Shown here in pieces: positions 11,304-36,100 of a DNA stretch of 55,685 nucleotides. The notes beneath the pieces are model-generated. The model was not told the DNA's origin and ran no database searches. It saw only the letters and a list, made by a program, of their open reading frames with translations. Positions within the stretch are counted from its first letter, which is position 1; every line of letters starts with the position of its first letter. The stretch is taken from positions 1-55,685 of the forward strand of contig JAAYYW010000128.1 of NCBI GenBank assembly GCA_012515195.1, in the 5' to 3' direction. This DNA comes from Leptolinea sp. Lineage in GTDB: Bacteria; Chloroflexota; Anaerolineae; Anaerolineales; Anaerolineaceae. Made by a program: the position numbers and the translations under genes.

Positions 11304-12765
11304 GAGAAAATCTTCTATTAAAACGTGTAATCAGTTTTCCAGCTTCAGCCTGGAAAAGCTGTAAGTCTTCTCTCCGGAGAATGCCGGAATTAAAGCTGAT
11401 AACAGTGAACATAACGAGAAACACCAGATCAATGATGATGTTGCTTTCATACACAAAGTACAGAGCCAGTCCGAGGGAAAGCAGGAACAATGGCTTGACA
11501 TAAGCGCTTATGCTGACCTCTACTTGTTTTCGTCTCAGAAAAAACACGTTCAAAGGGTTGACGACCGCCAGACCGATCAATGATGCGATGACCGCGCCAA
11601 CAACCTGGAACATGGGGATCAGGATAAAGTAACTTCCGAGAACAATTCCAAACCGGATGATATTAATGAACAACGGCTTTTCCTGTTCACCAATGGCAAC
11701 CAGAGTGTAGCCCATATTCGAATCAAGGGCAATAAAGATCAGAACGACCATCAGGGCGATGAATGGCGGCACGCTGGGAAGATACTGTTCGGAAAAGAAT
11801 ACTCGAAAGAACCAATCCCCCAACCCGAATGAAAGAATAACAGCCAAACCTCCCAGGAATGCTGTCAGCCGGTTTGCATGGTTGACCATATTGGAAATTC
11901 TTTCGAATTGTTTGGAAGAAAATAGATTGGTAATATACGGGAAGAATACTTCGATGAAAGACGTGTACAACATTTCAATACTTTCGGGAATCCGCCGCGC
12001 GAATTCATAGATGGCAATTTCGGCCGGACCGAAGAAATAGCCAATCACAAGAGTATCAGCCCGACTGTAGGCAAAAGCCAGGAGCTTATTCCCATAAAGG
12101 GGCAGACCAAATTTGAACAAGCGTTTGAACCATTCCAGGTCAAATTCAAATCTGAACCCGGATTGAACGGCCATAATGGAAATTATGAGACAAAGGATAT
12201 TGGGGACTAATCTGGCCCAGACCAAACCGTGCGCGCCCATATCCAATGGAATTACCAGGATGACTGTCAAAATGAGGCTGGTGAGACCATAGGTAAAATT
12301 GATGATCGCCAGAGATTTGAATTTTAACAATCCCTGCAGAATGTACGCATAATAATCGAGCAAGCCTTCAACGAAGAGAAATGCCGGAAGATACAGCAAC
12401 AAAAGCTGAGGAACTTTGCCACCCATTAACTGATAGAGATTATCATCAAAAAGAAAGATCAAAATACAGATCAGCACCATGCTTAAAGCCCTGAAGATAA
12501 TACCGGTGTTGATAATCTTCCGGCGTTCGCGTATATCTTCTGTACCGGCAATGAAACGGGTTGTGACGGTATCCATTCCAAGCTCGCCGAAAGACAACCC
12601 CAGGCTTATCAATACCTGTAGTAGGACAAACCCACCGTATTCTTCCTGTGACATCCACCGGGCATAGACGAGCATGCAAAGAATACCGAATACCACGGTC
12701 GACACTTTCCCCAGGCCGGACGAAAGGACATTACTAAAAAAATGGGAAAGAGAGGATTTCGACAT
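11296..12765 (-). CDS. wzx: Oligosaccharide flippase (Wzx/MOP family)
   Basis: 489 aa, many TM helices, AR-x-M-x-x-EEYG N-terminal pattern, SRADTLVIGYFFG; located in a glycan locus. Confidence 0.85.
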   Translation of the reverse strand: MSKSSLSHFFSNVLSSGLGKVSTVVFGILCMLVYARWMSQEEYGGFVLLQVLISLGLSFGELGMDTVTTRFIAGTEDIRERRKIINTGIIFRALSMVLICILIFLFDDNLYQLMGGKVPQLLLLYLPAFLFVEGLLDYYAYILQGLLKFKSLAIINFTYGLTSLILTVILVIPLDMGAHGLVWARLVPNILCLIISIMAVQSGFRFEFDLEWFKRLFKFGLPLYGNKLLAFAYSRADTLVIGYFFGPAEIAIYEFARRIPESIEMLYTSFIEVFFPYITNLFSSKQFERISNMVNHANRLTAFLGGLAVILSFGLGDWFFRVFFSEQYLPSVPPFIALMVVLIFIALDSNMGYTLVAIGEQEKPLFINIIRFGIVLGSYFILIPMFQVVGAVIASLIGLAVVNPLNVFFLRRKQVEVSISAYVKPLFLLSLGLALYFVYESNIIIDLVFLVMFTVISFNSGILRREDLQLFQAEAGKLITRFNRRFSHE

Positions 12766-12880: not shown

Positions 12881-13531
12881 TTATCCGGCGCCTTTGGCAA
12901 AGATCACCGCAGGAATTGTGAGAATAATGAGTTTCAAATCCAACCAGATCGACCAGTTACGAATATAGCGGATATCCATGCGAAGCTGGTCATCAAAAGC
13001 CACCCGCCCCCTGCCGTTGACCTGCCAGTAACCTGTGATTCCCGGGAATGCCAGAAATCGTTCGTTGTGCCACAGGCTGAATTCTTCCACTTCATACATG
13101 GGGAGCGGCCGTGGTCCAACAATGCTCATCTCGCCCTTTACGACATTGATCAACTGAGGAAGCTCATCCAGGCTTGTTTTTCGCAGCAGCTTTCCCATTC
13201 GCGTCACCCTGCGGTCATTGAGCAATTTCACATCGGTTCTTATGTCTACTTTGCCGGAGATGTAATCTTTGATGTGTTTTTTGTGTATCGATTCGTCTGC
13301 ATTGGCCTGCATGGTCCGGAATTTATAGCAATAGAAAGGGATGCAATCGATGCCGGCGCGTTTTTGTTTAAAAAAAACAGAGCCCTTTGAATCAAGTTTG
13401 ATTGCGATGGCAATAAGGGAAAAGAGGGGAATGAGAACTGGTAAGGCTATCAAGATCAGGCCGATGTCGGCTGTCCGCTTAAGAAAAAAATCACGCAATC
13501 CATAAATGGAATTTCTTCTATCGATTTTCAC
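12881..13531 (-). CDS. Small priming phosphoglycosyl transferase (PglC/Bac_transf type), motifs intact
   Basis: KRTAD, YKFRTM, RKTSLDELPQ, GEMSIVGPRP and PGITGYWQV. Confidence 0.9.
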   Translation of the reverse strand: MKIDRRNSIYGLRDFFLKRTADIGLILIALPVLIPLFSLIAIAIKLDSKGSVFFKQKRAGIDCIPFYCYKFRTMQANADESIHKKHIKDYISGKVDIRTDVKLLNDRRVTRMGKLLRKTSLDELPQLINVVKGEMSIVGPRPLPMYEVEEFSLWHNERFLAFPGITGYWQVNGRGRVAFDDQLRMDIRYIRNWSIWLDLKLIILTIPAVIFAKGAG

Positions 13532-15091: not shown

Positions 15092-16111
15092 ATGGAAAAA
15101 CTCATCGATGTTGCCGTTATTGGATGCGGTTATTGGGGAAGGAATTATGTCCGCTTGTTATCACAATTACCGGGCGCTAACCTGGCAGGTATCTGTGATC
15201 AATCTCCTTCCCGTAAAGAAGAAGCTGCCAAGATCAATCACGACGCCCCGTTTTTTGATGATCTTGACACAATGGTCAGGGAGTGCAAGTTTGACGCTGC
15301 AATTGTTTGCACCAATCCGTCAGGGCATTTCGCCATCACCAAACGTTTACTGGAAGCTGGTAAGCATATTCTGGTCGAGAAACCCATTACCACCTCTGTC
15401 AACGATGCTGAAGAATTAATAAAGGTCGCAGATTTAAACAATAAAGTATTGATGGTTGGACATACCTTCCTCTTTAATGCAGGTATTCAGGAAGTAAAGA
15501 ATTACATAGACTCCGGCCAGGTAGGCCGGGTCTATTATATGTACGCCAGGCGTACCAATCTTGGACCCATCCGGGATGATGTAAACGCTATATGGGACCT
15601 TGCGCCGCACGATATTTCGATTTTTAATTTCTTTATGGGCGATCGACCGGAATGGGTGAGCGCGGTCGGCAGCGCATTCCATAGCACCAGGGTTGATGCA
15701 GGTTTTATTGTTCTGAATTACCCCAACGGGAAGAAAGCGAACATCCACGTTAGTTGGGCCGACCCACACAAGGTTCGCGAACTGGTTGTGATCGGAAGTG
15801 ACCAACGGGTAGTTTTTAATGATATGGTCTCACAGGAAAAAGTAACCATATATAAGAAAGGCATTCCGGCATCATCGTTACCGAATTTCAACTATGTGGA
15901 TTATCAATTCTCTCTGCGCGATGGTGATATTGTAGTTCCAACGATCTCGTACGGAGAACCGCTCAAGAACCAGGTTCTGCATTTCATGGATTGTGCGGAG
16001 CATGGAAAGCGCCCGATAACCGATGGAAAAAGCGGCGCGGATGTGATCAGAGTACTGGAAGCGATCGACATGTCCATCAAGCAGGATGGAGTTCCGGTAA
16101 AGATAGGATAG
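15092..16111 (+). CDS. Gfo/Idh/MocA oxidoreductase (WbpB/GnnA-like nucleotide-sugar 3-dehydrogenase)
   Basis: IGCGYWG, ILVEKP, DLAPHD; AGGAG RBS; adjacent to a DegT aminotransferase. Confidence 0.85.
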
Positions 16112-16116
16112 GAAAA

Positions 16117-17238
16117 ATGGCCAACACAGAAATCAATAAAGTCTCGTTTGTAGATCTTGCCGCTCAATATCAGACCATTAAAACTGAGGTAGATGCGGCT
16201 ATCGCTTCGGTGATTCAGAATACCGCCTTCATTCTGGGACCCGAAGTCCGGAAATTTGAAGAGGAATTTGCGCAGTTTTGCGAAACAAAATACGCCGTGG
16301 GTGTTGATTCTGGCACTTCGGCCATTGAATTGATCATGCGCGCGCTTGAAATCGGCCCCGGTGATGAAGTGATCATCCCGGCTAATACATTTATTGCCAC
16401 GGCTTTGGGTGTTTCTTTCACCGGTGCCAAACCGGTATTTGTGGAACCGGAAGCGAAGACTTACAACATTGATGTTACCAGGATAGAGGCAGCCATCACT
16501 CCGCGAACAAAAGCCATTATGCCCGTTCATCTGTACGGGCAAACGGCTGATATGGACCCGATTTTAGATATTGCGAAAAAACACGGACTGTTTGTGGTTG
16601 AAGATGCCTGCCAGGCACACGGCGCACGGTACAAAGGCAAACGCGCTGGCTCAATGGGTATCGCGTCTGCTTTCAGTTTCTATCCGGGAAAGAATCTTGG
16701 TGCATACGGCGATGGCGGCGGGATCACCACCAATGACGAGAAAATACTCGCGAAATTGCATCGCTTGCGGGATTATGGGCAATCGGAAAAATATCATCAT
16801 GACGAACTTGGGTACAACCGTCGACTCGATTCCATGCAGGCGGCCATTCTTCGTGTCAAATTGCGCTACATCGACTCGTGGAATCAAGCCCGGCGCGACC
16901 ATGCGGATTATTATTCAAAGCTTCTCTCTGGCACGAAATATGTAACTCCTATAGTTCCTGCATATGCTGAGCCAATCTGGCATTTGTATGTCATTCAAAC
17001 AGAACAGCGTGATATGTTGATGAAATTCCTCTCTGGAATGGGCATTTACACAGGTATCCATTACCCGATACCCATTCATTTGCAGGGAGCCTACAAAGAT
17101 CTGGGTTACAAAACGGGTGATTTTCCTCTTACCGAAACCCAGAGTCAGAAAATTGTCTCCTTGCCTATGTTCGCAGAATTGAGTGACGAAATGGTTAAAT
17201 ATGTTGTCGATGGCCTGTTGAAATTTACTGGCTCCTAG
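16117..17238 (+). CDS. DegT/DnrJ/EryC1/StrS sugar aminotransferase
   Basis: EDACQAHGA and [16 protein letters not shown] (PLP lysine); start at ATG 16117. Confidence 0.92.
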
Positions 17239-17269: not shown

Positions 17270-18058
17270 ATGTATGTAATCTCAATCTCACAGGGGAAAG
17301 GAGGGGTGGGAAAAACAACAACAGCGATCTCGCTTGGATCCGCTCTTGTTGAGCTTAATAAAAGAGTTCTGATTATTGATATTGATCCTCAAGAACATGT
17401 GCAGGTGTCATTCAATAGCAATAATCATGAGCACATGTATGGTATGGATGATGTTCTGCTGGACAAGGTTCCCATATCAAAAGCCATTCGCAAAACCGCT
17501 TTCAAAGACCTTTTCTATATTACTTCCGGGAAACGGATTATTTTGGCGGAACAGTACCTTCCCATACATAAAAAGTACTACAAGACAATAAAAAATTGTC
17601 TGCAGGAACTTACGTTTTTCTTTGATTATGTGATCATTGATTGCCCTCCACTATTGGGTGCCCTTACGATGAATGCCATTGTAGCGGCTGATTTGGTGAT
17701 AATCCCTTCACTCCCTGATGCGTATTCGATGGTTGCCGTGGGACGGACAGTAAATTGGATTACCCAAATACAGAAAAAATATAACCCGGGCCTGACATAT
17801 CGGATTCTAGTTACGATGTTCAGTAAAGGTGTAATGACACACACGATGATGTATGAGAAACTGTCTGATTCTTTGAAAGATAAACTTTTCCAGACAGTAA
17901 TTTTTACAAACAGTAAGTTGCGGGAAAGTCAAATCGCAGGGATTCCGATCATTAATTATTCGCCCAAAGCTATTTCATCAGAACAATATCGTCAGGTTGC
18001 CAAGGAGGTGTTAGATCATGTCCAGTCTGAAAGTGAAGTTAGACAAGCGGATAGATAA
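17270..18058 (+). CDS. ParA/Soj-family (MinD-like) ATPase
   Basis: Deviant Walker A KGGVGKTT, A' DIDPQ, Walker B IIDCPP; no parB nearby. Confidence 0.88.
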   Translation: MYVISISQGKGGVGKTTTAISLGSALVELNKRVLIIDIDPQEHVQVSFNSNNHEHMYGMDDVLLDKVPISKAIRKTAFKDLFYITSGKRIILAEQYLPIHKKYYKTIKNCLQELTFFFDYVIIDCPPLLGALTMNAIVAADLVIIPSLPDAYSMVAVGRTVNWITQIQKKYNPGLTYRILVTMFSKGVMTHTMMYEKLSDSLKDKLFQTVIFTNSKLRESQIAGIPIINYSPKAISSEQYRQVAKEVLDHVQSESEVRQADR

Positions 18059-19904
18059 GATCGTTGGCGCCATTGATATATCTGGTAATGATACAGAGTT
18101 AGTTCAAACCAGTGTCGAGTTTCCCGGCTGGTCATGGAAGTGCGATGCCAAAGGGAAATTCCTTACATGCTCTGATGAAGTCTTTGATTGCCTGGGGATT
18201 ACGCCAAATGAATTTATCAATAAATCACTCATCACATTCCGGTTAACCAATGACAGCTCCTGTGAGCTGGGAAAGTACATCGCCGAATCCAATGAAGGTG
18301 GGAATATTGTTGTCTCGTATGAACACGCGGATGGCAAACATGTAGTTGTCAATCTGAATCTGGCCCCACAGGTTAACAGTAAGAATGAGTTTATTGGGTG
18401 GAGCGGATTTAATCAGGTTATAGAAGAAATTGCTGCTCCCCCAGTGCCAACACCTGCCGCGGCTGGAGAACCAGTTATCGAAAAAACCTCCATTGAAACT
18501 CAGCCGACTGTTCCCTTAACATCATTGCTATCTTTACCGGCGACTGAGCCGCTTTCGAGTTCGAAACCGCCGGTTTACGAAGAAGAACCCTTCGCATTGT
18601 CAGATTACTTTATGATCCTCCTGCGACGCCGGTGGGTCGTGCTGATGACATTCTTCTTTACCATGTTAATCGTCGCTTCCATTCTGTCGCAAATGCCCAG
18701 TCAGTACACGGCGAAGACTATTGTCAGGGTGACCAATCCGCGTTCGGGCAGTGCTGATTATGTGGACTACAACACAGAGTTGGGGCAAAGGCTTCTGGGT
18801 ACTTATGTTGAGATCGCCAATGGTGAAGTAGTAAAACAGCAGCTGAGTAAATTTGTTGACCGCATGCCGACCATAAATGCGGAACAGATCGCCAACTCCG
18901 AATTGTTTGAGATTACCGCTGAAGATCCTGACCCAGGTCTGGCTCAATTTGCGGCTAACAAACTGGCGGAGATCATCATCGCCGAAGGTGCCCAGCGTAT
19001 CAGCACAGATACTACGATAAACGTCTACATCGCCGAAGCTGCCTCGCTGCCGTCAGAACCTTCCAGCGCGAGCCCCTGGCTGTTGATTGGACTGGCTGCT
19101 TTCGTTGGTCTACTGGGTGGCTCTGGTCTTGCCTTTATCTTCGAAAATCTGGATACCCGCCTGTACTCGGATAAGCAGATTGAGTCGCTGACTGATTTGC
19201 ATGTTGTTGGTAATATCCCTGATGATGGAAATGTGGACAACAAAAAAGGCGTGGTATTCACAAAGAGAATACACAATGAAGCATTTCAACGGATGCGCAC
19301 CAACATCTTCACCCGCGATGGGCGAAAAACATTAAAAACACTGTTGATTACAAGCCCGGTTCCCCGAGATGGTAAATCAACTGTTGTAGTGAACTTTGCG
19401 CTAAATCTGACAAAGGGAAATCGATCTGTCTGCCTTTTGGATGCGAACCTTCGATTCCCATCGATTCATACTTTTTTTGACATTGATAACCAGATTGGTT
19501 TAAGTGATGTGTTGGAAGGGCGAGCCAACCTTGAAGATGTGACACACAAAACCGGGTCTACTTTCCTGAGTGTTATTCCCAGTGGGTCATCGGTTGCGAA
19601 CCCGGTGGATATTCTAGACTCGGATAAGATGCGGGAAGTAGTCGCACAGCTGGAGAAAGATTTTGAAATCGTTCTAATCGATTCCCCGGCGTCTACTTCG
19701 GTAACCGACCCGGCTGTTCTTTCCAGCCTGGCAGATGGCGTTCTACTGGTTGTGCGTCATGGATGGGTGCGGCAAGAAGCATTGACCCGTGCGATAAAGT
19801 ATCTAAAGAATGTCGATGCGAATATTGTCGGGGTTGTGTCAAATAGAACTGACCAGGGTGTACGGGCGAAATTATTCCAGGTGGCAAGCAGGAAATCGAA
19901 ATGA
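18018..19904 (+). CDS. Polysaccharide co-polymerase/BY-kinase (Wzc-like) with N-terminal PAS domain
   Basis: AAGGAGGTG RBS at 18002-18010. PAS-like region (WKCDAKGKFLTCS...LGITPNEFINKS...HADGKHVVV...IGWSG), Pro linker, two TMs flanking a Wzz-type loop, kinase motifs TSPVPRDGKST, LDANLR and LIDSP. Confidence 0.82.
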   Translation: MSSLKVKLDKRIDKIVGAIDISGNDTELVQTSVEFPGWSWKCDAKGKFLTCSDEVFDCLGITPNEFINKSLITFRLTNDSSCELGKYIAESNEGGNIVVSYEHADGKHVVVNLNLAPQVNSKNEFIGWSGFNQVIEEIAAPPVPTPAAAGEPVIEKTSIETQPTVPLTSLLSLPATEPLSSSKPPVYEEEPFALSDYFMILLRRRWVVLMTFFFTMLIVASILSQMPSQYTAKTIVRVTNPRSGSADYVDYNTELGQRLLGTYVEIANGEVVKQQLSKFVDRMPTINAEQIANSELFEITAEDPDPGLAQFAANKLAEIIIAEGAQRISTDTTINVYIAEAASLPSEPSSASPWLLIGLAAFVGLLGGSGLAFIFENLDTRLYSDKQIESLTDLHVVGNIPDDGNVDNKKGVVFTKRIHNEAFQRMRTNIFTRDGRKTLKTLLITSPVPRDGKSTVVVNFALNLTKGNRSVCLLDANLRFPSIHTFFDIDNQIGLSDVLEGRANLEDVTHKTGSTFLSVIPSGSSVANPVDILDSDKMREVVAQLEKDFEIVLIDSPASTSVTDPAVLSSLADGVLLVVRHGWVRQEALTRAIKYLKNVDANIVGVVSNRTDQGVRAKLFQVASRKSK

Positions 19905-19935
19905 TCCGGCGATTAGATGAGGTGGTTGGAGAATT

Positions 19936-21417
19936 ATGATCCAGGGCTCACTACGCCAGGGAATAGCTGTTGAAGATAGTACTCAGCTACTGCTTGCAGG
20001 AGTAGTTGGTGTATTGCTTGGCCTGGCATTCGCGTACGTTCCGGCGACCTATATTGCCATTGCGATGGTTGCGCTTTTTGTGGTTATCCTGGCCATAAAG
20101 TCTCCACAATATGCCATTCTGGCGTTCCTTTTCATCCATTCCACTTTTCTTTCCGGCGATGAACTCCCAAGGCTGGGCGTTGGTGGGATAAACATCTGGA
20201 TCACCGATATGATCCTTGTCGGTTTGCTGGCATTGATAGCGGCACGACTGTTGGTTGACCATAAATTCAAGATTTTCCGGTCACCGGTGATAGTTCCTTT
20301 GCTCACATTCATTATCTGGGTGGTTTTTACAACGCTGCGTGGTTATTTCTATGGCGGAAGCTCGCGCTGGGATATGGTGATTGAAACTCGGATTGCCCTT
20401 TATTACTTGCTGACTTTTTGTTGTATCTACCTGATCAAGAGGGAAAGCGAGATCAAGAGCCTGTTGAGGTGGTTCTATTTACTGGCTGTGGTAGCCTCGG
20501 TTTTCGTCATTATCCAGTTCGCGCTGGGATTCCAGGTTTCATTCCTCTCATCCGGCAAGATTTATGAATTTTCTTCTACCGGTGGTCCGGTAGTTGCCCG
20601 CGTTCAGGGAACGGTGGGCGAAGGATTAATTACCTTCGCGCTGGTCTTGAAAACTATAACCATGTTCATTGAAAAATTCCGGGTGAGCAAGATATATGAT
20701 CTGTTGCAATGGCTGGTCATCGCGTCGGCGTTGGTAACAACTTTCAACCGCACCCACTGGCTGATCGTGTTCATATCCCTCCTCGTTGCGGCTTTCTTTG
20801 TGGGCCGCAGGGAAAAGCAGCGGGTTTACATCTGGGGAATGATCGTCATGATAGTCGTTGTAGGGATGAGTTCCTTTATTGTTATGTATTCGCCGCAGTC
20901 TCGAGCTGCCAGCTTAATAAATGCCGGATTGAGCCGCTTGCTTACATTGACCCAGCTAGCTGAATACACTGACCCCGAAGTAAGTACGGTCGTGTGGCGT
21001 AACTTTGAATATGAGTATGGCATACCACAAGTATTAAAAAACCCAATAATGGGCATTGGATTGGGTGCAAGGTACCGCCCAACATTGGAGCATGATTATC
21101 CCGGTTTTACCGGCGAGCTATATACCCATAATTCGAATCTCTGGATTGCCATGAAGACCGGGCTCCCCGGTTTATTTCTGTATCTATGGTTTTCAAACGC
21201 GTATGTGTGGCATGCGTTAAAGAACTGGAAATTAATCAAAGACATTCCGCAGAGAGGGTTTGTTCTGGGGAGTGGAATTGGAATTTTTATTGCTTTATTG
21301 GGAGCCAACCTTCACCCGTTCGGAATGACCCTTGAATGGGTTCCCGTAATTTCAATTATTATTGGATTGGGTGAAGCGATCATATACCATCAATACTGTC
21401 AAATGGATATTACATAA
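19936..21417 (+). CDS. Wzy polymerase/O-antigen ligase family membrane protein
   Basis: Many TMs, TFNRT, loop WR...NPIMGIGLG...YTHNSNLWIAMKTGLPGL of the Wzy_C family. Confidence 0.82.
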   Translation: MIQGSLRQGIAVEDSTQLLLAGVVGVLLGLAFAYVPATYIAIAMVALFVVILAIKSPQYAILAFLFIHSTFLSGDELPRLGVGGINIWITDMILVGLLALIAARLLVDHKFKIFRSPVIVPLLTFIIWVVFTTLRGYFYGGSSRWDMVIETRIALYYLLTFCCIYLIKRESEIKSLLRWFYLLAVVASVFVIIQFALGFQVSFLSSGKIYEFSSTGGPVVARVQGTVGEGLITFALVLKTITMFIEKFRVSKIYDLLQWLVIASALVTTFNRTHWLIVFISLLVAAFFVGRREKQRVYIWGMIVMIVVVGMSSFIVMYSPQSRAASLINAGLSRLLTLTQLAEYTDPEVSTVVWRNFEYEYGIPQVLKNPIMGIGLGARYRPTLEHDYPGFTGELYTHNSNLWIAMKTGLPGLFLYLWFSNAYVWHALKNWKLIKDIPQRGFVLGSGIGIFIALLGANLHPFGMTLEWVPVISIIIGLGEAIIYHQYCQMDIT

Positions 21418-21418
21418 T

Positions 21419-22282
21419 ATGAAACGATACCTCTATTCTGTTGTTGGTCTGATACTTTTTTACGGGTTGTTTTTCTACGGTTCGACCTATCTAGTCAATG
21501 GTCAGGCAATTATCCACTTTCAATACTTCTTTCCACCATTGCTTGTGCTTTTTCCCCTATTGTTGCTTCTTATACCTTTTGTCGGTCAAAGAATTCGGTG
21601 GATCACAACCATTTTGGGATTTGTGTCTTATTTGGGTTTAACGGTGTTCAATCTGCCTGTCCTCAGACAGCTAAACCATAATTTGATCCCATCATTAATC
21701 ATAGAAGTTTTTTGCCTTTTGACATTGCTACTATTGGTAAACGATCTTGCCAAACAGAATGAAACTCTTGAAAATCTTATCGAATCATTCATTACGCCAT
21801 CAAATCAGCATCGATTGCTCGACATTTCAGCGGATCAGACAACCATTGATGATGAATTCTATCGGGGCAGACGGTTTGGCTACCCGGTTTCAACCTTGAT
21901 GTTAAGCTTTGGTTCCGAAGTGGATTCTATGGGGAAGGATTCGACATTCGATTTCCTGCTCAAAGACTTGCAGGATTGGATCGGTCAGCGATATGTGTAT
22001 TACCGATTCACAAAATTAATGGGAAGCATGATCCGCAAATCAGATCTGATCGTAAAGCTGGATGAAAAGAACAAGCTCTTGTTGGTATGCCCTGATACGC
22101 CGGCGGAAAACCTTCCCGTCCTTGCGGAAAAGCTTCAAAAACATTTCAAAGCACAACTGGATGTGAATGTTGTGTGCGGAACAGCTTCTTTCCCTGATGA
22201 TGGTTCCACCTTCCGCGCGTTGTTGTCCAAGGCGGATGAGTCATTGGTCAACGCTTTCCAGTCCACAGAGATCGACCATTAG
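21419..22282 (+). CDS. Four-TM protein with degenerate GGDEF domain (PelD-like putative c-di-GMP receptor)
   Basis: Four hydrophobic helices, then EFYRGRRFGYPVS, IRKSDLIV (RxxD), active site replaced by LDEKN, GTASFPDDG...LLSKAD. Start ATG 21419 sits just after the wzy stop. Confidence 0.75.
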   Translation: MKRYLYSVVGLILFYGLFFYGSTYLVNGQAIIHFQYFFPPLLVLFPLLLLLIPFVGQRIRWITTILGFVSYLGLTVFNLPVLRQLNHNLIPSLIIEVFCLLTLLLLVNDLAKQNETLENLIESFITPSNQHRLLDISADQTTIDDEFYRGRRFGYPVSTLMLSFGSEVDSMGKDSTFDFLLKDLQDWIGQRYVYYRFTKLMGSMIRKSDLIVKLDEKNKLLLVCPDTPAENLPVLAEKLQKHFKAQLDVNVVCGTASFPDDGSTFRALLSKADESLVNAFQSTEIDH

Positions 22283-22316
22283 CGAGGTTAGCCGGAATTA
22301 TGAGAGGAAGTATCCC

Positions 22317-24743
22317 ATGAACAAAACGTGGAAACGACCCATAACCAGATCGGTCATTCCGGTATTGGTTTTTCTCATTTTCACGGGAGGTCTGGTATTC
22401 ACAAGTCCTGCTGTGGTTGCTGCCACGCTGCCCCCACCCACTCCCACAATGGCAGGCACTATTCTGCCGAAACTAGCTCCAACTCCCCGCCCTACCACCG
22501 GTCCAACCCCGACCCGGTATCCGACTTTGAGCAATTTCAATGAATATACTGACAATGTCAAACTACACCTATCGCAGCTCGATTATTCTGAATTGGTGCT
22601 TGATTTTCCAGAGGCAGTGGAGTTTTATGTGCGATTGCCAGACCAATGGCAGGTGAAGGCAACCAGCTCATTTACCATGCATTACACCCTGTATGACCAG
22701 GTTGAAGATTCACAGCTTTTGGGTGGTTACTATGCCTTTGATCCGCCGGCGGTGAGGATATATGTTAACGATTTTATGGCTGCCACTTTCAACCCTGTAT
22801 CTGGTAAGGACCAGTATTATACGTTTGATATTCCTCTTCAAGTCACAGATCGGGTAAATTCCAATCCGAGTAACGAATTTTCGTTCCGCTTTGAATTTGT
22901 GGATGAGCACGATTTTTACTGCGGTTATGTTGGTCTTTTGACCATGCACGAAGATTCTTTTTTCAATGTAAATTACGATTTCATGCTCCCAACGCTGGAC
23001 TTATCCCGCTTTCCCAATCCTATTTCTCAGAATTCATCATTATCCGAGATCATTTATTTTATTGTTCCCGATAATTTTAACGGTAGTGATCTCTCGGCTG
23101 CGGCAACTACAGCCTCGATCATCACCAAATCTACGGTGTCATTCGCAACTTATAAGTTGGTAAGAGAATCAGACCGATTGGGTATCCCGAACAAGGCGAA
23201 TATTGTGGTAATTGGCCCGCCATCGCGCAATGCATTTCTTCGGGATGTTCTATACAGGCGAAGCGGAACAGGCATCGGAATGCCGTCATCCCTGGTCAGT
23301 GGAAATAAAATATATGTGAAAAGTGCCGATCGCATGCTGGCAGACAATGAAGGTCTGATCCAGCTTATGCCGAGTATTATGGACCCGCACTATTCATACA
23401 TGATCGTAACCGGAAACTCTGATGAGAGTGTGCAACTGGCCGCCAAGGGATTATCATCTCCTCCGATCGGGCAGGTTGGAGCGGGGTATATTGTTGGCTC
23501 GAATTTTAAGATACCTCCTTTCGAACTTAATAACATTATTACCCTTAAGAGTCTGGGCTACAGAAGCACCACATATTATGGTGCCGGCACAAATATCATC
23601 AACATCCCATTTTACATTCCCCGCAATTGGCGAATGGAAGAAGGAACCGCCCTTATTTTAAAGTACCGCAACTCGGATAATTTGGACGAAATCAACTCAG
23701 GACTGGCATTGTACATCAATGACCAACCGGCTGGTTTTGTTAAGATTGATGTCAAGAGAACCGGGGAAAAGGAAGTGACTATTCCCATCAACAAGGGCGA
23801 TATTCGTTCGGGTTGGTTGAATATTTTGCGGATCGAAGCAACCAGCGATATGTTGAAAGCCTGTCTGTACAATCCACGGGCATTCATGATCAATGTTCAG
23901 GATACCAGTTTGTTGCTCTTGCCACATTCGATTATTACTGATCCAAAAGAATTATCAAAGATAGTACACCCCATTTTTTATATGGGAACCAATCCATCGA
24001 TCTATGTTTCCATGCCTAAAAATCCGACGACAAAAGATCTGGATATGTTGATGAGCTTTACATCACTCTTTGGAGGATTGAGACTACCTACGATCGATTT
24101 TCACGTAGGTTTAAAAGGTGAAGAAGACCTTACGGAAATGACGGGCTACAATGTTCTGGTTATTGGCCGACCGTCAACAAATGGTTTGCTTGATACGATC
24201 AACGAATACCTGCCGCAAAAATTTGTGGATCAGACAGACGCGCTTGAACAGATGGTTGGGAATGTAGCTTATCAGGTTCCGCCTGGAGTAAGCCTGGGCG
24301 TTATGGAGGTCATCACATCACCGTTTGATCCGACAATGGGACTGACCCTGGTGAGCGGTACAAATGATGAGGGGCAGAGATTCGTGTATGACCGGTTGGT
24401 TCAAAATCCGCTCAACCTTGTTGAACTAGAGGGAGACCTGGTCTTCTTTGGAAATAAGACAGTCAAAGCTCTGACTACTTTTGAAGGTGTTCCAGTTGCC
24501 CTGGATATAGCCAGCTCCAGTGTCACCGGTACGCAGGTTGCTCTGCAAGCTGTTCCAACCGGTGGTGTAAACGCCACACAAACGGACAAAACAGAAGTGC
24601 CCAAATATGTCAGCACTGTGACGGTTGAAAACCCGGTCTCTCAGATGTTGGGAAAATACCTGCTGATTGGCCTGATCGCTTCTGGGTCGTTCATCTTACT
24701 TCTGGCAGTCATCCGAACGGCAAGGGGAGGAAGGCGGTCTTAG
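22317..24743 (+). CDS. BcsB-like protein (cellulose synthase subunit B family)
   Basis: Signal peptide, PT linker, two internal repeats (VRLPDQW/YIPRNW; IYVND/LYIND; NIVVIGPPSRN/NVLVIGRPSTN; MIVTGNSDE/TLVSGTNDE) and one C-terminal TM. Start ATG 22317 with GAGGA RBS. Confidence 0.75.
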   Translation: MNKTWKRPITRSVIPVLVFLIFTGGLVFTSPAVVAATLPPPTPTMAGTILPKLAPTPRPTTGPTPTRYPTLSNFNEYTDNVKLHLSQLDYSELVLDFPEAVEFYVRLPDQWQVKATSSFTMHYTLYDQVEDSQLLGGYYAFDPPAVRIYVNDFMAATFNPVSGKDQYYTFDIPLQVTDRVNSNPSNEFSFRFEFVDEHDFYCGYVGLLTMHEDSFFNVNYDFMLPTLDLSRFPNPISQNSSLSEIIYFIVPDNFNGSDLSAAATTASIITKSTVSFATYKLVRESDRLGIPNKANIVVIGPPSRNAFLRDVLYRRSGTGIGMPSSLVSGNKIYVKSADRMLADNEGLIQLMPSIMDPHYSYMIVTGNSDESVQLAAKGLSSPPIGQVGAGYIVGSNFKIPPFELNNIITLKSLGYRSTTYYGAGTNIINIPFYIPRNWRMEEGTALILKYRNSDNLDEINSGLALYINDQPAGFVKIDVKRTGEKEVTIPINKGDIRSGWLNILRIEATSDMLKACLYNPRAFMINVQDTSLLLLPHSIITDPKELSKIVHPIFYMGTNPSIYVSMPKNPTTKDLDMLMSFTSLFGGLRLPTIDFHVGLKGEEDLTEMTGYNVLVIGRPSTNGLLDTINEYLPQKFVDQTDALEQMVGNVAYQVPPGVSLGVMEVITSPFDPTMGLTLVSGTNDEGQRFVYDRLVQNPLNLVELEGDLVFFGNKTVKALTTFEGVPVALDIASSSVTGTQVALQAVPTGGVNATQTDKTEVPKYVSTVTVENPVSQMLGKYLLIGLIASGSFILLLAVIRTARGGRRS

Positions 24744-25330
24744 ACGGGGGAAACCCGACCGTCAATAACCTGGTATTGTCTTCCACAGGACGGGCAAAAG
24801 GCTTTTTGTCCGTCCTCTTTTAATCTCAGACCGCACTGGCAAACCCAGCCAATCTGCCGGGCTGGATTGCCGACAACCAGCGCGTAGGGTGGAATATCAT
24901 GTGTGACCACGCAACCAGCCCCCACCATGGCAAATTCGCCGATGGTGTTATTGGACACAATGACTGCCCCGGCTCCCAGGGATGCGCCCCGGCAGACTTT
25001 GGTTTTGAAAAGCCAATCACTTGATTCATACCGATATTTACATTGTTCCAGGCGGGGTGAACGTGGATACAGGTCGTTTGTAAAGAACACATGCGGTCCA
25101 ACGAATACACCTTCTTCCAATTCAACACCATCAAATAACATATTCCCGTTCTTGATGGTCACATTATTGCCTACTATTACACCAGATTCTACAAAGCAGT
25201 GATCGCCGATGTTGCAATTCGAGCCGATGGTTACATTGTTCATCACATGGGCATACGCCCATATACGGGTTCCCGCTCCTATGCGGGCGGTTTCAACAAT
25301 GGCTGTGGGGTGCGCGTAGAATTCGCTCAT
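24740..25330 (-). CDS. Hexapeptide-repeat N-acyltransferase (WbpD/WlbB/FdtC-like) with C-terminal Cys knuckle
   Basis: HPTAIVE, IGAGTRIW, VFFTNDLYPRS, VVGNPAR, CQCG...CPSCG. Confidence 0.88.
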   Translation of the reverse strand: MSEFYAHPTAIVETARIGAGTRIWAYAHVMNNVTIGSNCNIGDHCFVESGVIVGNNVTIKNGNMLFDGVELEEGVFVGPHVFFTNDLYPRSPRLEQCKYRYESSDWLFKTKVCRGASLGAGAVIVSNNTIGEFAMVGAGCVVTHDIPPYALVVGNPARQIGWVCQCGLRLKEDGQKAFCPSCGRQYQVIDGRVSPV

Positions 25331-25401
25331 TTTTGCCTCTTTTGGGGACTTTCTGTTATATTTCAGGATTATTGCCTGTTGCTGTTACCTGCATTTCTTA
25401 G

Positions 25402-26598
25402 CTACGTATCAAATCGCAGGTTATTTTCGTCAAGATGGACACTTCCGATGGTCTGCGGGTATGTCGGATTTCGCGGGTTGGCTGCAGAACGTTCTCTCCA
25501 CCATCGGGCGGTATCCCGTGGAAGGGCATGATATACCGAGTCTTTCGTCTGCATTTCTTCGAGGAAGCGGGTATATACATACTGTGTTCGGGTATCCTGT
25601 AGATAATCAGGGTGTGAATTGATCAAGGCCATTCCGTGGTATTGCTCAATGAAGGCGGTCTTTTCAAGCCATAATCGCGGGGTATCTTGCTGCATGAAGG
25701 AAGCCAGAGTGTAATCCTGCATCAAGGTGTAGGGAAGCTCAACAAATTTCCCCAATAAATACGGATAAATGCTCATTGTCCCGCCTGGCATGGGTTCATA
25801 CGGATCGGTGTCAAAGAAGGATGAGTCGTACTCAACATCCAATGCCTGCATCCATTCCGGGTTACGGTGGGTAAGGGGAGAGCGGAATCCGGCTGCGCCG
25901 TAGGTTTCAAGATAACCATTGATCCGTTTGACGCGTTCATCAAACCCTTTTTTTGAAAGGAACAGTTTTCCGTCATGTCTTAACCCGTGTATTCCGATTT
26001 CAAAACCCCGGCGTTTAAGCTCGTCCACCAGGTTGTTATCTATGGTGTATCGCTCCGGAATGAAGTTGAATGACGAACGGAATCCCATCGATTCTTCCAA
26101 ATCCGCGATAGCCCGGATATTCTCCTGTCCTGCCTGAGTCTCGACATCATGGGTAAGGATCAGCGCGTAACGCCGGCCTTCCGGCCAGAAGTTGATGTAC
26201 CGAAGGGACTTTGTTCCGCTGAGGAGCATGGCTTGACGTAAGACCTCTCGTAGATAAAGGGCATACCGTGGTTCAATCGGCCATTGAAGAGGGAATTTTT
26301 GTCGATTGGGGTTGCTGTACCATTTTCGCAGCACCCATGCCAGAGGTTGGGGGAAAAAGGGTTTGACCCGGTAATAGACCCGTTTGGCAAAGCCCATCCG
26401 GAAATGGTCTGGACCAAATTGTCCCTCCCCCAGAATGGTTTCCAGTAGGGCGTCAAATCCGGAGGATAGATCTATCCCTGCTACTGCCAGAACTGGCAAG
26501 GCGGCGGTTGCAGCCTGCACCCAGATATCCTCAGGGATATCCGATTCGCAGCGCCAAATGTCCTGTGGACGATTACCTTTCCAGAGTGATTTGTTCAT
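25402..26598 (-). CDS. Polysaccharide deacetylase-family protein
   Basis: LTHDVET, EIGIHGLRHD, YDSS, VELPYT; start 26598 by ATGA coupling to the upstream gene. Confidence 0.78.
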   Translation of the reverse strand: MNKSLWKGNRPQDIWRCESDIPEDIWVQAATAALPVLAVAGIDLSSGFDALLETILGEGQFGPDHFRMGFAKRVYYRVKPFFPQPLAWVLRKWYSNPNRQKFPLQWPIEPRYALYLREVLRQAMLLSGTKSLRYINFWPEGRRYALILTHDVETQAGQENIRAIADLEESMGFRSSFNFIPERYTIDNNLVDELKRRGFEIGIHGLRHDGKLFLSKKGFDERVKRINGYLETYGAAGFRSPLTHRNPEWMQALDVEYDSSFFDTDPYEPMPGGTMSIYPYLLGKFVELPYTLMQDYTLASFMQQDTPRLWLEKTAFIEQYHGMALINSHPDYLQDTRTQYVYTRFLEEMQTKDSVYHALPRDTARWWRERSAANPRNPTYPQTIGSVHLDENNLRFDT

Positions 26599-27623
26599 CC
26601 TACATGCCTGTATAGGAGTTCCCCGATGATTTGGGAAACCCACATGGGAGAACGGCGGAGCACAATTGCGGCCAGGTCCATAAATCGGCTCTCTTCCCTG
26701 GGTTCGCAACCCAGATAGGAATACGTAAGTGGTTTTTCCTCATATTTCCACTGATTCTTAAAGTTGCGAAGACCGGAATTATTAATATCGCTTCTCCCAA
26801 AGTCATATCGCTGGTATCCGGCGGCATTGCCGCGACGAATTGTTTCCCAGTTTAGCAGGTAATTGGGGTGAAGATTGGTCAAGTCTACATCACCCGACGC
26901 GCTGTACTTGATTGTTACTGTTTGGCCATATTTTAGATAAACAAGCCCGGCAATACAATCTTTTCCCAGATAGGCCAGTAATACGCCGCCAAAACCTTTT
27001 TCCAGCACATTCTTTCCAAGGTTTGTGAAATACTTCCAGGGTTGAACCGGAACCCCGTGACGCCTTCTGGTAAAGGAATGCAGTCTGTAGAATTCTCGCA
27101 GGGAGTCTTCAGACGTTCCCTCCTCCACGCGAACCCCCCGTTCGATGGTTGTGCGGATGGAATAGCGCACCTTTTTGTTGAATTGTGCCAACAATTCCTC
27201 TTCCGTTTTCCGGTGGAACGACCCGATATGAAAAACATTCTGGCTGGATGTTGTTATCTCAGGGCGGGGTGGGTACTCCCATCGTAATTCGATTCTCGGG
27301 ATACCTGCCTCGTGTTTAATATTAATAAGACCATCTGTAAGGATTTCAATATCCTCTGCCCGGTATGAGAGCGGAATACAATAATCACTAAAAGGTAAGG
27401 AAACCCAACGATTCCCGGTCAGGCGGCTGTTAACCTCAGCCATGGGAACACCAGCTGTTATTTTGTTTCCGGTGTCTTCAAGGACCGCAACAAATGTTTT
27501 GTACTGATATGTGTCTTCCAGATTTTTCATCCAATTGGGATGATGAAAGATCATGGCGTTGGGATGTGATTGGATGAAGTCCAGCCAGCGTGGGTCTTGC
27601 GGCGAAATCCTGATCACGGGCAT
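26595..27623 (-). CDS. FemAB-like/GNAT acyl- or aminoacyl-transferase
   Basis: IFHHPNW, SLPFSDY, PNYLLNWETI and YDFGRS...GLRNFKNQW. Confidence 0.82.
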   Translation of the reverse strand: MPVIRISPQDPRWLDFIQSHPNAMIFHHPNWMKNLEDTYQYKTFVAVLEDTGNKITAGVPMAEVNSRLTGNRWVSLPFSDYCIPLSYRAEDIEILTDGLINIKHEAGIPRIELRWEYPPRPEITTSSQNVFHIGSFHRKTEEELLAQFNKKVRYSIRTTIERGVRVEEGTSEDSLREFYRLHSFTRRRHGVPVQPWKYFTNLGKNVLEKGFGGVLLAYLGKDCIAGLVYLKYGQTVTIKYSASGDVDLTNLHPNYLLNWETIRRGNAAGYQRYDFGRSDINNSGLRNFKNQWKYEEKPLTYSYLGCEPREESRFMDLAAIVLRRSPMWVSQIIGELLYRHVG

Positions 27624-28837
27624 AGTTTATGTCGCTTTCCGGTCAACCCGTCCAGCAATCGGAAATAGTCCAAACGGCCTTTTACCCAGGAGAACTCCTG
27701 GCTGTATTCCAGGTCGGCCTGGGTCATAAGTTCCTCTGCCAGCTCTGAGTTGGTATAGATTTCCATCACGCGGGCTATGAACTGATCCAACACGTTGGAT
27801 TCAAAATAGAGAATTGCCTTATCTGAAAACATCTCTTCTAAAACGGTCAACCGCGTGGCGACAATGGGCAAGCGCATCAGGGAATATTCAAAAACCTTTT
27901 CAGGAACAGCCACATCCATGTACTGGTCTCTGATGGCCGGATAGATGCCAAGGTCAGCGGCTGATAGCAGCTCCGGGACCTTGTCAACCGGTACGGCCGG
28001 GATGAATTCGACCCGATTCGTTACGCCCAGTTCTTCTGCCAGAACCTGCAGCTCGCGGGTATAGTCATTTTGCCACCCGATGATCTGTAGGTGCACATTC
28101 TCGATTTTCCGGGCCAATTCCGGCATGGCACGGATGGGGATGTCCAATCCATAACGCGGTGCCTGGGTACCCGGAAAGATCAGCGTGAACCGCGAACGTT
28201 TGGCTGACCGGATTTCTTTAAATTTCTCACGGTTAAAAAAGCCTGTGTTGGGTGTGTTATAGATGACAAGCAGTTTTTTTTCGGGAAGACCACGATTGAC
28301 CAATTTCCGTTGAAAACCACGGCAGGCTGTGATCACTGCGTTGGCAAACATTGTCGAGAGTTTCTCCTGGAATCGGATGACTTTTACCATGTAATGATCG
28401 GGCTGAATGCCAAATTTGGAAACATAAAATTCCGGCATGATGTCATGAATATCCAGAATGACCGGGGTTCCCAGAATGCGGGGTATTAGCGCAGTGAAAA
28501 CAAGGAAGTCAGGCATGTTATGGATATGAACGACTGAAAAACGGTGCCTGAAATGTAAAATAGTCAATTTAAAGAAGTACAGAAAAAAAGCGTGTATGTA
28601 TCCCAGCAGAAAATCTGCTTTTGACTGATAATCCTTATCCACCGGGATGGTATGCACGGTGATGTTGTTCATCGCTTTCGTGTTCGATCTGGCCGCGTCT
28701 GCGATACACAGAACATCAATAAAGGCACCTTCTGCAGCCAACGCTTCACAATAACGGCGCACGCGGGCATCGTCAAAATAGTTCTGATGGACTACCATAC
28801 AAACCCGCATTGGTTCTGCCTTTGTCGAATTCTTCAT
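27614..28837 (-). CDS. Glycosyltransferase family 4
   Basis: DARVRR, HIHNMPDFL, PEKVFEYSLMRLPIVAT; ATGA coupling. Confidence 0.88.
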   Translation of the reverse strand: MKNSTKAEPMRVCMVVHQNYFDDARVRRYCEALAAEGAFIDVLCIADAARSNTKAMNNITVHTIPVDKDYQSKADFLLGYIHAFFLYFFKLTILHFRHRFSVVHIHNMPDFLVFTALIPRILGTPVILDIHDIMPEFYVSKFGIQPDHYMVKVIRFQEKLSTMFANAVITACRGFQRKLVNRGLPEKKLLVIYNTPNTGFFNREKFKEIRSAKRSRFTLIFPGTQAPRYGLDIPIRAMPELARKIENVHLQIIGWQNDYTRELQVLAEELGVTNRVEFIPAVPVDKVPELLSAADLGIYPAIRDQYMDVAVPEKVFEYSLMRLPIVATRLTVLEEMFSDKAILYFESNVLDQFIARVMEIYTNSELAEELMTQADLEYSQEFSWVKGRLDYFRLLDGLTGKRHKLCP

Positions 28838-29793
28838 TGGTGAATTGCTCCGTTGTAAACTTCCATTATGCGCGCAGCAGACCATTTGGTGTCACGGGCG
28901 GTCGCTTTTTCTGGTGGTTTGATCCTACGGTTGTTGCCAAAGACCAACTTTACCTTTTCCGCAATATCAGCCGGATCATAGCTGCAAATATGACAGCCAT
29001 CAACATCCGCGATCAAATCCACCACATCTCCCACCGGTACTGAGACGACCGGCAATCCACAGGCCAGGGCTTCGCGTACGGCTACCGGCGAGCCTTCATG
29101 GCTGGAAACCAGCACCATCACATCGCTGGCATTCATAAAAAACGCGATTTTCTCACGGGGTTTTCCGAAAACTGCAATAAGCTGAACGAACATCTCTGGC
29201 TTTAGCTTTTCCACTGCTTTTTCGAGTAGATGAAATTGTTTCTCTGTGCGTGACGGATTGTACGGAAAAAGGATGATCCGCTTGTTAGCAGACAATTGCA
29301 ATTCCCGGCGAGCTTCAGCAACCGGTATGGGGTGAAATATCGTAGTATTTATCCCGTAGGGAATAACGGCCACTTTGCCGATATCCCCTGGCACGGCTTT
29401 CGCCATTTCATCTGTTTGGACGATAACACGCTTCGCCAGATGGGCCACCAACCGGCCGATCAATGAATCACGTTCACCGGTCAAATCGCTACTATCCCGG
29501 TTGACAAGATCTGATCCTAACAGGCTGACTATCACCGGGTATTTCCACTGGAGAAGAGCGATGAACCCGTTGAGGCTGTATGTCGCATGGATCAGGTCAT
29601 ATCGACGTGGATGAAAGTTCAACCCCAAAATCCGGAGGGCTGTCACCACGTAAGAGCGTTTACACCTGGCCCGCACCATCCAAATTTCAAATTCGACACC
29701 CATCTTGCCCATCTCGGTGATCTGGTCGGAAATACCGGGCGCGCTGACAACTTCCGGATCCCCGATAGAATGGGTGATGAGCAACACCTTCAT
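28834..29793 (-). CDS. Glycosyltransferase family 4
   Basis: SSHEGSPVAVREALACGLPVV (EX7E motif). Confidence 0.88.
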   Translation of the reverse strand: MKVLLITHSIGDPEVVSAPGISDQITEMGKMGVEFEIWMVRARCKRSYVVTALRILGLNFHPRRYDLIHATYSLNGFIALLQWKYPVIVSLLGSDLVNRDSSDLTGERDSLIGRLVAHLAKRVIVQTDEMAKAVPGDIGKVAVIPYGINTTIFHPIPVAEARRELQLSANKRIILFPYNPSRTEKQFHLLEKAVEKLKPEMFVQLIAVFGKPREKIAFFMNASDVMVLVSSHEGSPVAVREALACGLPVVSVPVGDVVDLIADVDGCHICSYDPADIAEKVKLVFGNNRRIKPPEKATARDTKWSAARIMEVYNGAIHQ

Positions 29794-31914: not shown

Positions 31915-31965
31915 GGGTTCTATTCAATACCATCCGGTTTGAGCGTTGTTGTTATCATGTTGTTC

Positions 31966-32829: not shown

Positions 32830-32883
32830 TTAATAATTATATCAGCAGGGGGAAAAATGACCTGACGGGCTAATATACCGGGG

Positions 32884-35911: not shown

Positions 35912-36100
35912 TTTGTTTCAAATATCAACAACTATGAAAATGCTTCTCAAAAAGACACAATCAAATATGGAAGTAAATCCGTAGAGTGAATTGCGTATCA
36001 GTTAGACAAATTACCGCCTTCATCGAGCTTATCTACACCGGATCATCACAAACGCAGCCTTTGAGTGATCAAGGACTGGCATTTGAAGGGAGATTTCGTT

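What the first reader, a model, noticed from the sequence alone, without database searches (positions are those of the whole stretch)
17270..24743. Hybrid exopolysaccharide machine: ParA, PAS-Wzc, Wzy, PelD-like c-di-GMP receptor and BcsB-like protein in one operon, without a synthase
Seen: five tightly packed co-oriented genes (41-bp overlap, then gaps of 31, 1 and 34 bp) inside a locus with Wzx, priming transferases and non-processive GTs. Established: Wzx/Wzy/Wzc define the repeat-unit pathway. BcsB, the MinD/ParA-like BcsQ and the degenerate-GGDEF receptor PelD belong to synthase-dependent systems (Bcs, Pel), which are treated as a separate class. Inference: a Wzy polymerase has recruited the accessory parts of synthase systems. 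That would give c-di-GMP-gated, PAS-sensing, ParA-positioned polymerisation, with BcsB as the extracytoplasmic guide. I know of no described system with this combination.
Basis: partly seen in the sequence, partly recalled or inferred. Interest (0 to 1): 0.92.

Follow-up and report, generated by a model that had tools for sequence, protein, structure and literature searches.

The report
ParA-tagged, BcsB-equipped Wzy polysaccharide machine
An operon of an Anaerolineae bacterium joins a repeat-unit (Wzx/Wzy-type) polysaccharide pathway to a true relative of the cellulose-synthase helper BcsB, a likely c-di-GMP receptor, and a ParA ATPase with its likely docking tag grafted from a signalling kinase onto the chain-length regulator, which would be an undescribed way to switch and position this common pathway.

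Summary
The five genes, their order and spacings are real. The BcsB fold, PAS-Wzc, the Wzy/WaaL-clan protein and the dead GGDEF domain with an intact RxxD site are all confirmed.

Two labels fail. The ParA is not BcsQ. It nests among Anaerolineae ParAs encoded before PAS-GAF histidine kinases, and that kinase's N-terminal peptide and PAS domain now head a Wzc lacking its tyrosine tail. The GGDEF protein is YdaK/PssE-like, not PelD.

The genome does hold a bcsA, but it has its own CcsB-like partner, and one relative has the full operon with no bcsA found.

The exact five-gene order was seen in only 4 genomes of one genus. The wider pairing is class-wide: 31 of 58 BcsB-like loci hold Wzx/Wzy-pathway genes, none with a QxxRW synthase. 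The GGDEF family usually abuts, and once fuses to, the priming transferase; many relatives carry a co-polymerase-GGDEF fusion.

Likely mechanism: c-di-GMP-gated, ParA-organised Wzy polymer assembly with BcsB as outer guide. Every interaction is inferred; the ParA-Wzc complex model gave only weak support. No description was found in 10 literature searches. Earlier scan notes cover the wider system but not the ParA graft.

The parts
15092..16111 (+). Gfo/Idh/MocA oxidoreductase, first gene of the co-oriented run (likely nucleotide-sugar synthesis)
   Evidence: Pfam; contigs from RNA libraries of three studies begin at 15060-15075 (weak hint)
16120..17238 (+). DegT-family aminotransferase (likely amino-sugar synthesis)
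   Evidence: Pfam 410 bits; conserved before parA in 3 relatives
17270..18058 (+). ParA/Soj-type ATPase of the Anaerolineae histidine-kinase-associated clade; not BcsQ
   Evidence: AAA_31 146.6 vs BcsQ 60.7 bits; best PDB hits are ParA/Soj; tree
18018..18077 (+). N-terminal peptide of Wzc, homologous to the K(Q)L..RL..LF head of the proteins encoded after ParA; predicted ParA-docking tag
   Evidence: kept without PAS in G002; complex model weak support
18123..18422 (+). PAS domain grafted from a PAS-GAF-HisKA-HATPase-REC hybrid kinase
18018..19904 (+). PAS-Wzc: co-polymerase with a short extracytoplasmic domain and a BY-kinase-fold domain that keeps Walker A and B, has an altered Walker A' (D-A-N-L-R) and no Tyr-rich tail
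19936..21417 (+). Wzy/WaaL-clan membrane glycosyltransferase; the only full-length candidate polymerase found in the genome
   Evidence: Wzy_C 56.8 bits; model matches WaaL 7tpg, E 2e-8
21419..22282 (+). 4-TM protein with a catalytically dead GGDEF domain (YdaK/PssE-like predicted c-di-GMP receptor)
22034..22045 (+). RxxD I-site motif (R206-K-S-D209), five residues before the degenerate active site (LDEKN, 22061-22075)
   Evidence: invariant in 15 of 15 aligned sequences
22317..24743 (+). BcsB-fold extracytoplasmic protein with an N-terminal hydrophobic segment and a C-terminal TM anchor
   Evidence: Pfam 92.2 bits; AF2 pTM 0.74 and Foldseek to 7l2z/6yg8, E 3e-34, TM 0.55/0.67
11296..12765 (-). 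Wzx flippase of the surrounding locus
   Evidence: Pfam
12881..13531 (-). short (216 aa) priming phosphoglycosyl transferase; candidate target of the GGDEF receptor
   Evidence: Pfam; family neighbourhood; orthology to the GGDEF-adjacent transferases not resolved
24740..34362 (-). convergent block: acetyltransferase, DUF2334, FemAB/GNAT, three GT4, deacetylase, soluble GT2, long priming transferase
   Evidence: Pfam; conserved in 3 relatives

Best explanation
The operon likely encodes the membrane core of a Wzx/Wzy surface-polysaccharide pathway in which a BcsB-fold protein would guide the polymer outside the membrane, a dead-GGDEF membrane protein would gate synthesis by binding c-di-GMP, and a ParA captured from a signalling locus would dock on the co-polymerase and position or reorganise it. 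Shown: the gene content, the folds, the motifs, the origin of the ParA-peptide-PAS head, the loss of the Tyr tail, and the class-wide pairing of BcsB and GGDEF modules with Wzx/Wzy genes. Inferred, step by step: (1) flanking transferases build a lipid-linked repeat unit and Wzx flips it; (2) the Wzy_C protein polymerises it with PAS-Wzc as co-polymerase; (3) BcsB, anchored by its C-terminal helix, holds or channels the chain, where diderms use an OPX; (4) c-di-GMP acts through the RxxD site, on the priming transferase (the family-wide neighbour) or, in this lineage, on the BcsB/Wzy core (the local neighbour); (5) because Wzc cannot cycle through tail phosphorylation, the ParA ATP cycle acting on its N-terminal tag is the likely source of spatial control. 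BcsB and the GGDEF receptor are shared modules of monoderm polymer systems rather than recent loans from Bcs or Pel.
For: BcsB: 31 of 58 BcsB-like loci examined hold at least 2 of Wzx/Wzy/co-polymerase/priming transferase; 0 of those 31 hold a QxxRW synthase and 22 of 31 hold no membrane GT2 in the DNA fetched. In a 301-genome class sample BcsB-like genes occur in 30 genomes, but in 18 of the 21 with the locus-type co-polymerase and 13 of the 19 other genomes with the TM-GGDEF protein (kin are not independent). G004 (98% complete) has the full operon and no bcsA match. The bcsA of this genome sits between a 2-TM CcsB-like gene and a GH5 gene; that partner occurs in 10 of 61 genomes, all ten directly beside the synthase, two of them with no BcsB match. 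c-di-GMP: RxxD kept and GGDEF lost; 15 of 19 class-wide homologues abut a priming transferase and 1 is fused to it; co-polymerase-GGDEF fusions make up 104 of the best 150 representatives, 85 of 104 with RxxD and 0 of 104 with GG[DE]EF; 20 of 22 GGDEF-like ORFs listed in this genome have an intact or near-intact active-site motif. ParA: 24 of the 25 closest ParAs outside the EPS loci are followed by an overlapping gene with the same N-terminal peptide, and those read in full are PAS-GAF histidine kinases. Complex model of ParA dimer with Wzc 1-140: score 0.54 against a best control of 0.00, runs agreeing in at least 87% of contacts, partner pLDDT at least 80; the tool rates this weak support (at 0.60 or under, 18 of 157 solved complexes and both of the 2 passing mismatches of 215).
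Against: No interaction was measured. The exact five-gene order was seen in 4 genomes of one genus only, and PAS-Wzc in 8 protein clusters. The BcsB gene has no fixed neighbour, and in 4 of 58 loci it sits by a QxxRW synthase and in 2 by polyglutamate genes, so it is not Wzy-specific. 9 of the 31 Wzy-type loci hold a membrane GT2 without QxxRW that could be a processive partner there. The Wzy_C model matches the ligase WaaL, so polymerase activity is not shown. RxxD is missing in 10 of 26 distinct TM-GGDEF homologues, including the transferase fusion. The window's short transferase does not group clearly with the GGDEF-adjacent ones. The ParA is on a long branch and lacks an arginine kept in donors and Soj (its DNA-binding role is recalled).
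Confidence: 0.55

Rival explanations
1. The BcsB-like protein serves the bcsA synthase on another contig and is only parked in this locus.
For: G000, G005 and G009 each hold a BcsA with QRDRW and a PilZ-like tail, and only one BcsB-like gene was found in each.
Against: That bcsA has its own adjacent CcsB-like gene in 10 of 10 cases, the architecture of clostridial ccsABZ (bioRxiv 10.1101/837344, passages). G004 has the operon without a bcsA match. Of 25 BcsB-positive genomes among 61, 14 had no near full-length CelA match.
Confidence: 0.1
2. The Wzy_C protein is a ligase or oligosaccharyltransferase that attaches short glycans to an envelope acceptor, and the BcsB-like protein is that acceptor or an anchored glycan-binding scaffold, not a polymer guide.
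For: The model's best match is WaaL. BcsB-like proteins here carry Pro/Thr-rich linkers, and some homologues carry extra extracellular domains.
Against: A co-polymerase lies beside it, and no other full-length Wzy candidate or second co-polymerase was found in the genome with profiles built from these loci.
Confidence: 0.17
3. The parts are real but act separately: BcsB modifies or retains the finished polymer with the deacetylases and hydrolases, c-di-GMP acts only on the priming step, and the ParA-PAS head is a leftover of a rearrangement with little function.
For: BcsB neighbours vary and often are deacetylases or GHL15 hydrolases. Most Wzy-BcsB loci have no ParA. The donor kinase locus was not found in the genus.
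Against: ParA is 72-93% identical across four genomes with its Walker motifs intact. A second, differently arranged parA-wzc pair in G002 keeps the peptide though not the PAS domain.
Confidence: 0.18

Closest known systems
Listeria monocytogenes pssA-E (PMC4125290, passages read)
   Same: BcsB orthologue (PssD) and an I-site degenerate-GGDEF receptor (PssE) in a monoderm, making a non-cellulose polymer
   Different: Pss uses the GT2 PssC as predicted polymerase; here there is no synthase, but Wzx, priming transferases, a co-polymerase and a Wzy_C protein
Bacillus subtilis YdaK of ydaJKLMN (PMC5422440, passages read)
   Same: four predicted TM helices plus a degenerate GGDEF domain with RxxD five residues before the dead active site; needed for EPS
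   Different: acts on the putative glycosyltransferases YdaM/N; no Wzx/Wzy genes named in the passages read
BcsAB cellulose synthase with BcsQ (PMC8892547, passages; PDB 7l2z, 6yg8, 4hg6)
   Same: full-length BcsB fold and C-terminal anchor; a ParA/MinD-family ATPase in a polysaccharide operon
   Different: no BcsA in the operon; the ATPase is a Soj-like ParA from a kinase locus, not BcsQ
Wzc/CapAB co-polymerases and the BY pseudokinases EcpK and HfsB (PMC12004946, passages read)
   Same: co-polymerase with a BY-kinase-fold domain; like EcpK/HfsB it lacks the Tyr-rich tail
   Different: keeps Walker A and B, is fused to the co-polymerase, and carries an N-terminal peptide-PAS head with a dedicated ParA
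ParA/MinD cargo-positioning systems: ParB, ParC/PpfA, McdAB (PMC11407121, passages read)
   Same: ATPase encoded before a partner with an N-terminal interaction region
   Different: the predicted cargo is a membrane polysaccharide co-polymerase; no such cargo, and no histidine-kinase cargo, appeared in the passages read

Membership tests
Wzx/Wzy-dependent pathway | Wzx flippase, priming transferase, non-processive GTs and a co-polymerase in the locus | tested here: met
Wzx/Wzy-dependent pathway | Wzy polymerase (as opposed to a ligase) | tested here: inconclusive
   Wzy_C hit and WaaL/SEDS-clan fold; context favours polymerase
BcsB family | Pfam PF03170 over cut-off and the tandem BcsB fold over the whole ectodomain | tested here: met
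   92.2 vs 21 bits; Foldseek E 3e-34 over 733 columns
BcsB family | C-terminal membrane anchor | tested here: met
   hydrophobic helix 773-804
Bcs/Pss synthase-dependent system | processive GT2 synthase encoded with BcsB | tested here: not met
   the only GT2 in the locus is soluble with no QxxRW; bcsA lies elsewhere with its own partner
BcsQ | closest profile and clade; Walker A GVRGGVGTTT without the signature Lys | tested here: not met
   TIGR03371 85 vs cut-off 158; motif is KGGVGKTT; nests among kinase-associated ParAs, far from E. coli BcsQ (quick tree)
ParA-type cargo-positioning ATPase | deviant Walker A, A' and B motifs intact | tested here: met
   KGGVGKTT, DIDPQ, DCPP
ParA-type cargo-positioning ATPase | binds an N-terminal region of its partner | tested here: inconclusive
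   homologous peptide present; complex model weak support, 0.54 vs 0.00
ParA-type cargo-positioning ATPase | binds a matrix (nucleoid or membrane) | not testable with these tools
   one basic residue kept in donors and Soj is lost; its role is recalled
PelD / Pel system | PelD_GGDEF or GAF domain; pelFG in the genome | tested here: not met
   no such hit at E<=1; pelG 0 of 5 genomes; PelD architecture is recalled; pelF not searched
YdaK/PssE-type I-site receptor | 4 TM helices, dead active site, RxxD five residues upstream | tested here: met
YdaK/PssE-type I-site receptor | binds c-di-GMP | not testable with these tools
   needs a binding assay
BY-kinase (canonical Wzc) | Walker A and Walker B | tested here: met
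   RDGKS and IDSP
BY-kinase (canonical Wzc) | Walker A' and Tyr-rich C-terminal tail | tested here: not met
   second Asp is Asn or Ser in 8 of 8; at most 1 Tyr in the last 35 residues and none in the tail

The most novel reading that the evidence does not exclude
Anaerolineae run a third kind of polysaccharide machine: a Wzy polymerase that threads its chain through a BcsB crown in place of an OPX, is switched on directly by c-di-GMP, and in this genus has replaced the Wzc tyrosine-phosphorylation cycle by a ParA ATPase cycle acquired by grafting a kinase's cargo tag and PAS sensor onto the co-polymerase.
Probability: 0.25. Interest if true: 0.9.

Novelty: new variant of a known kind. Interest (0 to 1): 0.72.

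Why it matters
Wzx/Wzy and synthase pathways are treated as separate classes. In the papers read, BcsB always works with a GT2 synthase. Here a true BcsB fold and I-site GGDEF modules recur in Wzx/Wzy loci across a class of monoderm bacteria found in anaerobic bioreactors, which makes direct c-di-GMP control of Wzy assembly, and chain guidance without an outer-membrane exporter, testable. The ParA graft is a clean natural case of a positioning system changing cargo by gene fusion. A cultured strain (L189, Leptolinea tardivitalis) carries the TM-GGDEF, co-polymerase-GGDEF, Wzy, Wzx and BcsB genes, though not the ParA graft.

Tried and rejected
ParA as BcsQ: rejected. GGDEF protein as PelD: rejected. 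Assembly chimera: rejected, because the order recurs in three other genomes at 58-87% BcsB identity and PAS-Wzc occurs in 8 clusters. Homology of the TM-GGDEF protein to the N-terminal half of the long priming transferase: none. Orthology of the window's short transferase to the GGDEF-adjacent ones: unresolved. Promoter and terminator scans were at or below chance (15 vs 22.8; 11 vs 11.8). Contigs of four RNA libraries cover gfo to wzc and patches of wzy and bcsB, with little on the opposite-strand GT block, but contigs cannot show transcription, level or a single transcript. The genome-contig scan returned one locus only, so the range outside Anaerolineae was not surveyed by neighbourhood. 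The careful ParA tree did not finish; the quick tree is cited and the G002 join is a long-branch meeting. No Wzy-BcsB or GGDEF-transferase complex was modelled; the single job went to ParA-Wzc. Wza/OPX was not searched genome-wide; none was among the 45 window proteins scanned. Supplements were not read and bioRxiv supplements were closed; operon tables of PMC7112194 could bear on novelty.
Full report
Observation. The five ORFs, strands and spacings are as described. The co-oriented run begins two genes earlier with gfo and degT. It is flanked by opposite-strand blocks with Wzx, two priming transferases, three GT4, a soluble GT2 and modifying enzymes; no processive synthase is in the locus. 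Homologue names and Atlas taxa place the organism in Anaerolineae, Chloroflexota, probably near Leptolinea. The genome is 90% complete in 438 contigs.

Domain calls. BcsB passes Pfam (92.2 vs 21 bits), and its model matches E. coli BcsB over 733 columns (E 3e-34, TM 0.55/0.67). The fourth protein has four hydrophobic segments and a GGDEF fold just under the Pfam cut-off, supported by profile hits to solved cyclases and by the Atlas model. It keeps RxxD five residues before a dead active site. That is the YdaK/PssE pattern (PMC5422440, PMC4125290, passages), not PelD. The third protein is of the WaaL/Wzy/SEDS clan; fold alone does not separate polymerase from ligase. The second protein is a co-polymerase with a short outer domain and a BY-kinase fold. 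In 8 of 8 homologues the second Asp of Walker A' is Asn or Ser and there is no Tyr-rich tail, two features that define active BY kinases (PMC12004946, passages).

Conservation. The five-gene order recurs in G004, G005 and G009, 4 of 11 genomes of the genus counting this one. G059 has GGDEF-bcsB at a contig end. G002 has bcsB-bcsB-parA-wzc-flippase-wzy without PAS. The looser pairing is wide. Of 58 BcsB-like loci examined (five shorter than 3.1 kb, all counted), 31 hold at least two of Wzx, Wzy, co-polymerase and priming transferase. None of the 31 holds a QxxRW synthase; 9 hold a membrane GT2 without QxxRW; 4 other loci hold a synthase (the profiles were built from these loci after Pfam confirmation). 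Two loci pair BcsB with polyglutamate genes. In a 301-genome class sample BcsB-like genes are in 30 genomes, but in 18 of 21 with the locus-type co-polymerase and 13 of 19 with the TM-GGDEF protein. Kin are not independent.

The synthase rival. It lies between a 396-aa protein with two terminal TM helices and a GH5 gene, the ccsB-ccsA-ccsZ architecture (bioRxiv 10.1101/837344, passages). That partner was found in 10 of 61 genomes, each time beside the synthase, and in two of them no BcsB was found. G004, 98% complete, has the whole operon and no bcsA match. The rival is therefore weak but not excluded.

Where c-di-GMP may act. Of 19 class-wide homologues of the TM-GGDEF protein, 15 abut a priming transferase, 1 is fused to it, 2 lie one or two genes away and 1 is at a contig end. 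Many relatives also carry a co-polymerase fused to a degenerate GGDEF domain where Wzc has its kinase: 104 of the best 150 representatives have both parts, 85 of 104 keep RxxD and none has GG[DE]EF. Against this, RxxD is missing in 10 of 26 distinct TM-GGDEF homologues (27 rows, one duplicate dropped), including the fusion. In this lineage the gene has moved next to bcsB, and the window's short transferase does not group clearly with the adjacent ones. The target here is open.

The ParA graft, specific to this locus. The ParA scores far higher as Soj-type than as BcsQ. Of the 25 closest ParAs outside the EPS loci that could be read (one further locus gave none), 24 are followed by an overlapping gene starting with a K(Q)L..RL..LF peptide, usually with the same PAS domain. 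Those read in full are PAS-GAF hybrid histidine kinases. The window's ParA nests in that group on a long branch (quick tree, SH-aLRT 96 for the enclosing groups), apart from chromosomal Soj, chemotaxis ParA and E. coli BcsQ. The donor head was not found elsewhere in the genus, nor the donor's neighbours in this genome. So the ParA gene and the head of its partner were moved together onto wzc. ParA-family ATPases often bind a partner's N-terminal region (PMC11407121, passages). A model of the ParA dimer with Wzc 1-140 scored 0.54 against 0.00 for the best of three controls, which the tool rates as weak support.

Mechanism and standing. The likely working is Wzy-type polymer assembly gated by an I-site receptor, guided outside by BcsB, and organised by ParA through the captured tag (confidence 0.55). 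Each contact is inferred. Ten full-text searches found no description of BcsB or degenerate GGDEF modules in a Wzx/Wzy locus, nor of ParA with PAS-Wzc; three of them returned no paper at all. The library lacks most subscription papers. I read passages of PMC8892547, PMC7112194, PMC6843789, PMC12004946, PMC4125290, PMC11407121, PMC5422440, PMC13274460 and 10.1101/837344, and only listings of the others. Earlier scan notes describe the wider Anaerolineae system but none the ParA-PAS-Wzc graft; they are not independent evidence. That Chloroflexota lack an outer membrane is recalled. Verdict: real, a new variant of the Wzx/Wzy kind, interest 0.72.

Noticed in passing
L138:1-15220, L141, L142, L143 (many Anaerolineales): Conserved signalling locus: membrane Cache/HAMP/GAF sensors, ParA, a 1,600-1,730 aa peptide-PAS-GAF-HisKA-HATPase-REC kinase, a PLP enzyme fused to REC, a multi-TM membrane protein and response regulators. 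A ParA that may position a histidine kinase.
   Followed up: partly
L174:1351-5214 (G168): Wzx and BcsB-like sequences in one 1,288-aa reading frame; single case, could be a true fusion or a lost stop.
   Followed up: partly
L187:10182-11966 (G208): TM-GGDEF fused to a priming transferase; RxxD is lost in this copy.
   Followed up: partly
L042:2384-6595 (G039): BcsB-like domain fused behind a glucose/sorbosone dehydrogenase domain (1,404 aa) in a Wzx/Wzy locus.
   Followed up: no
L053:8278-15920, L056:6362-13426: BcsB-like gene plus a membrane protein with a weak GGDEF hit directly before polyglutamate synthesis genes (Mur ligase, CapC).
   Followed up: partly
L092:1099-5347 (G000 contig C356): Clostridial-type ccsB-ccsA-ccsZ glucan synthase operon in 10 of 61 related genomes.
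   Followed up: yes
window 13642-14601 and 36065-38350: Two paralogous polysaccharide-lyase (PF14099) genes bracket the locus.
   Followed up: no
window 44098-45153: A GGDEF protein with RESD and GGEEL, 20 kb from the operon and conserved in two relatives; possible local c-di-GMP source.
   Followed up: no
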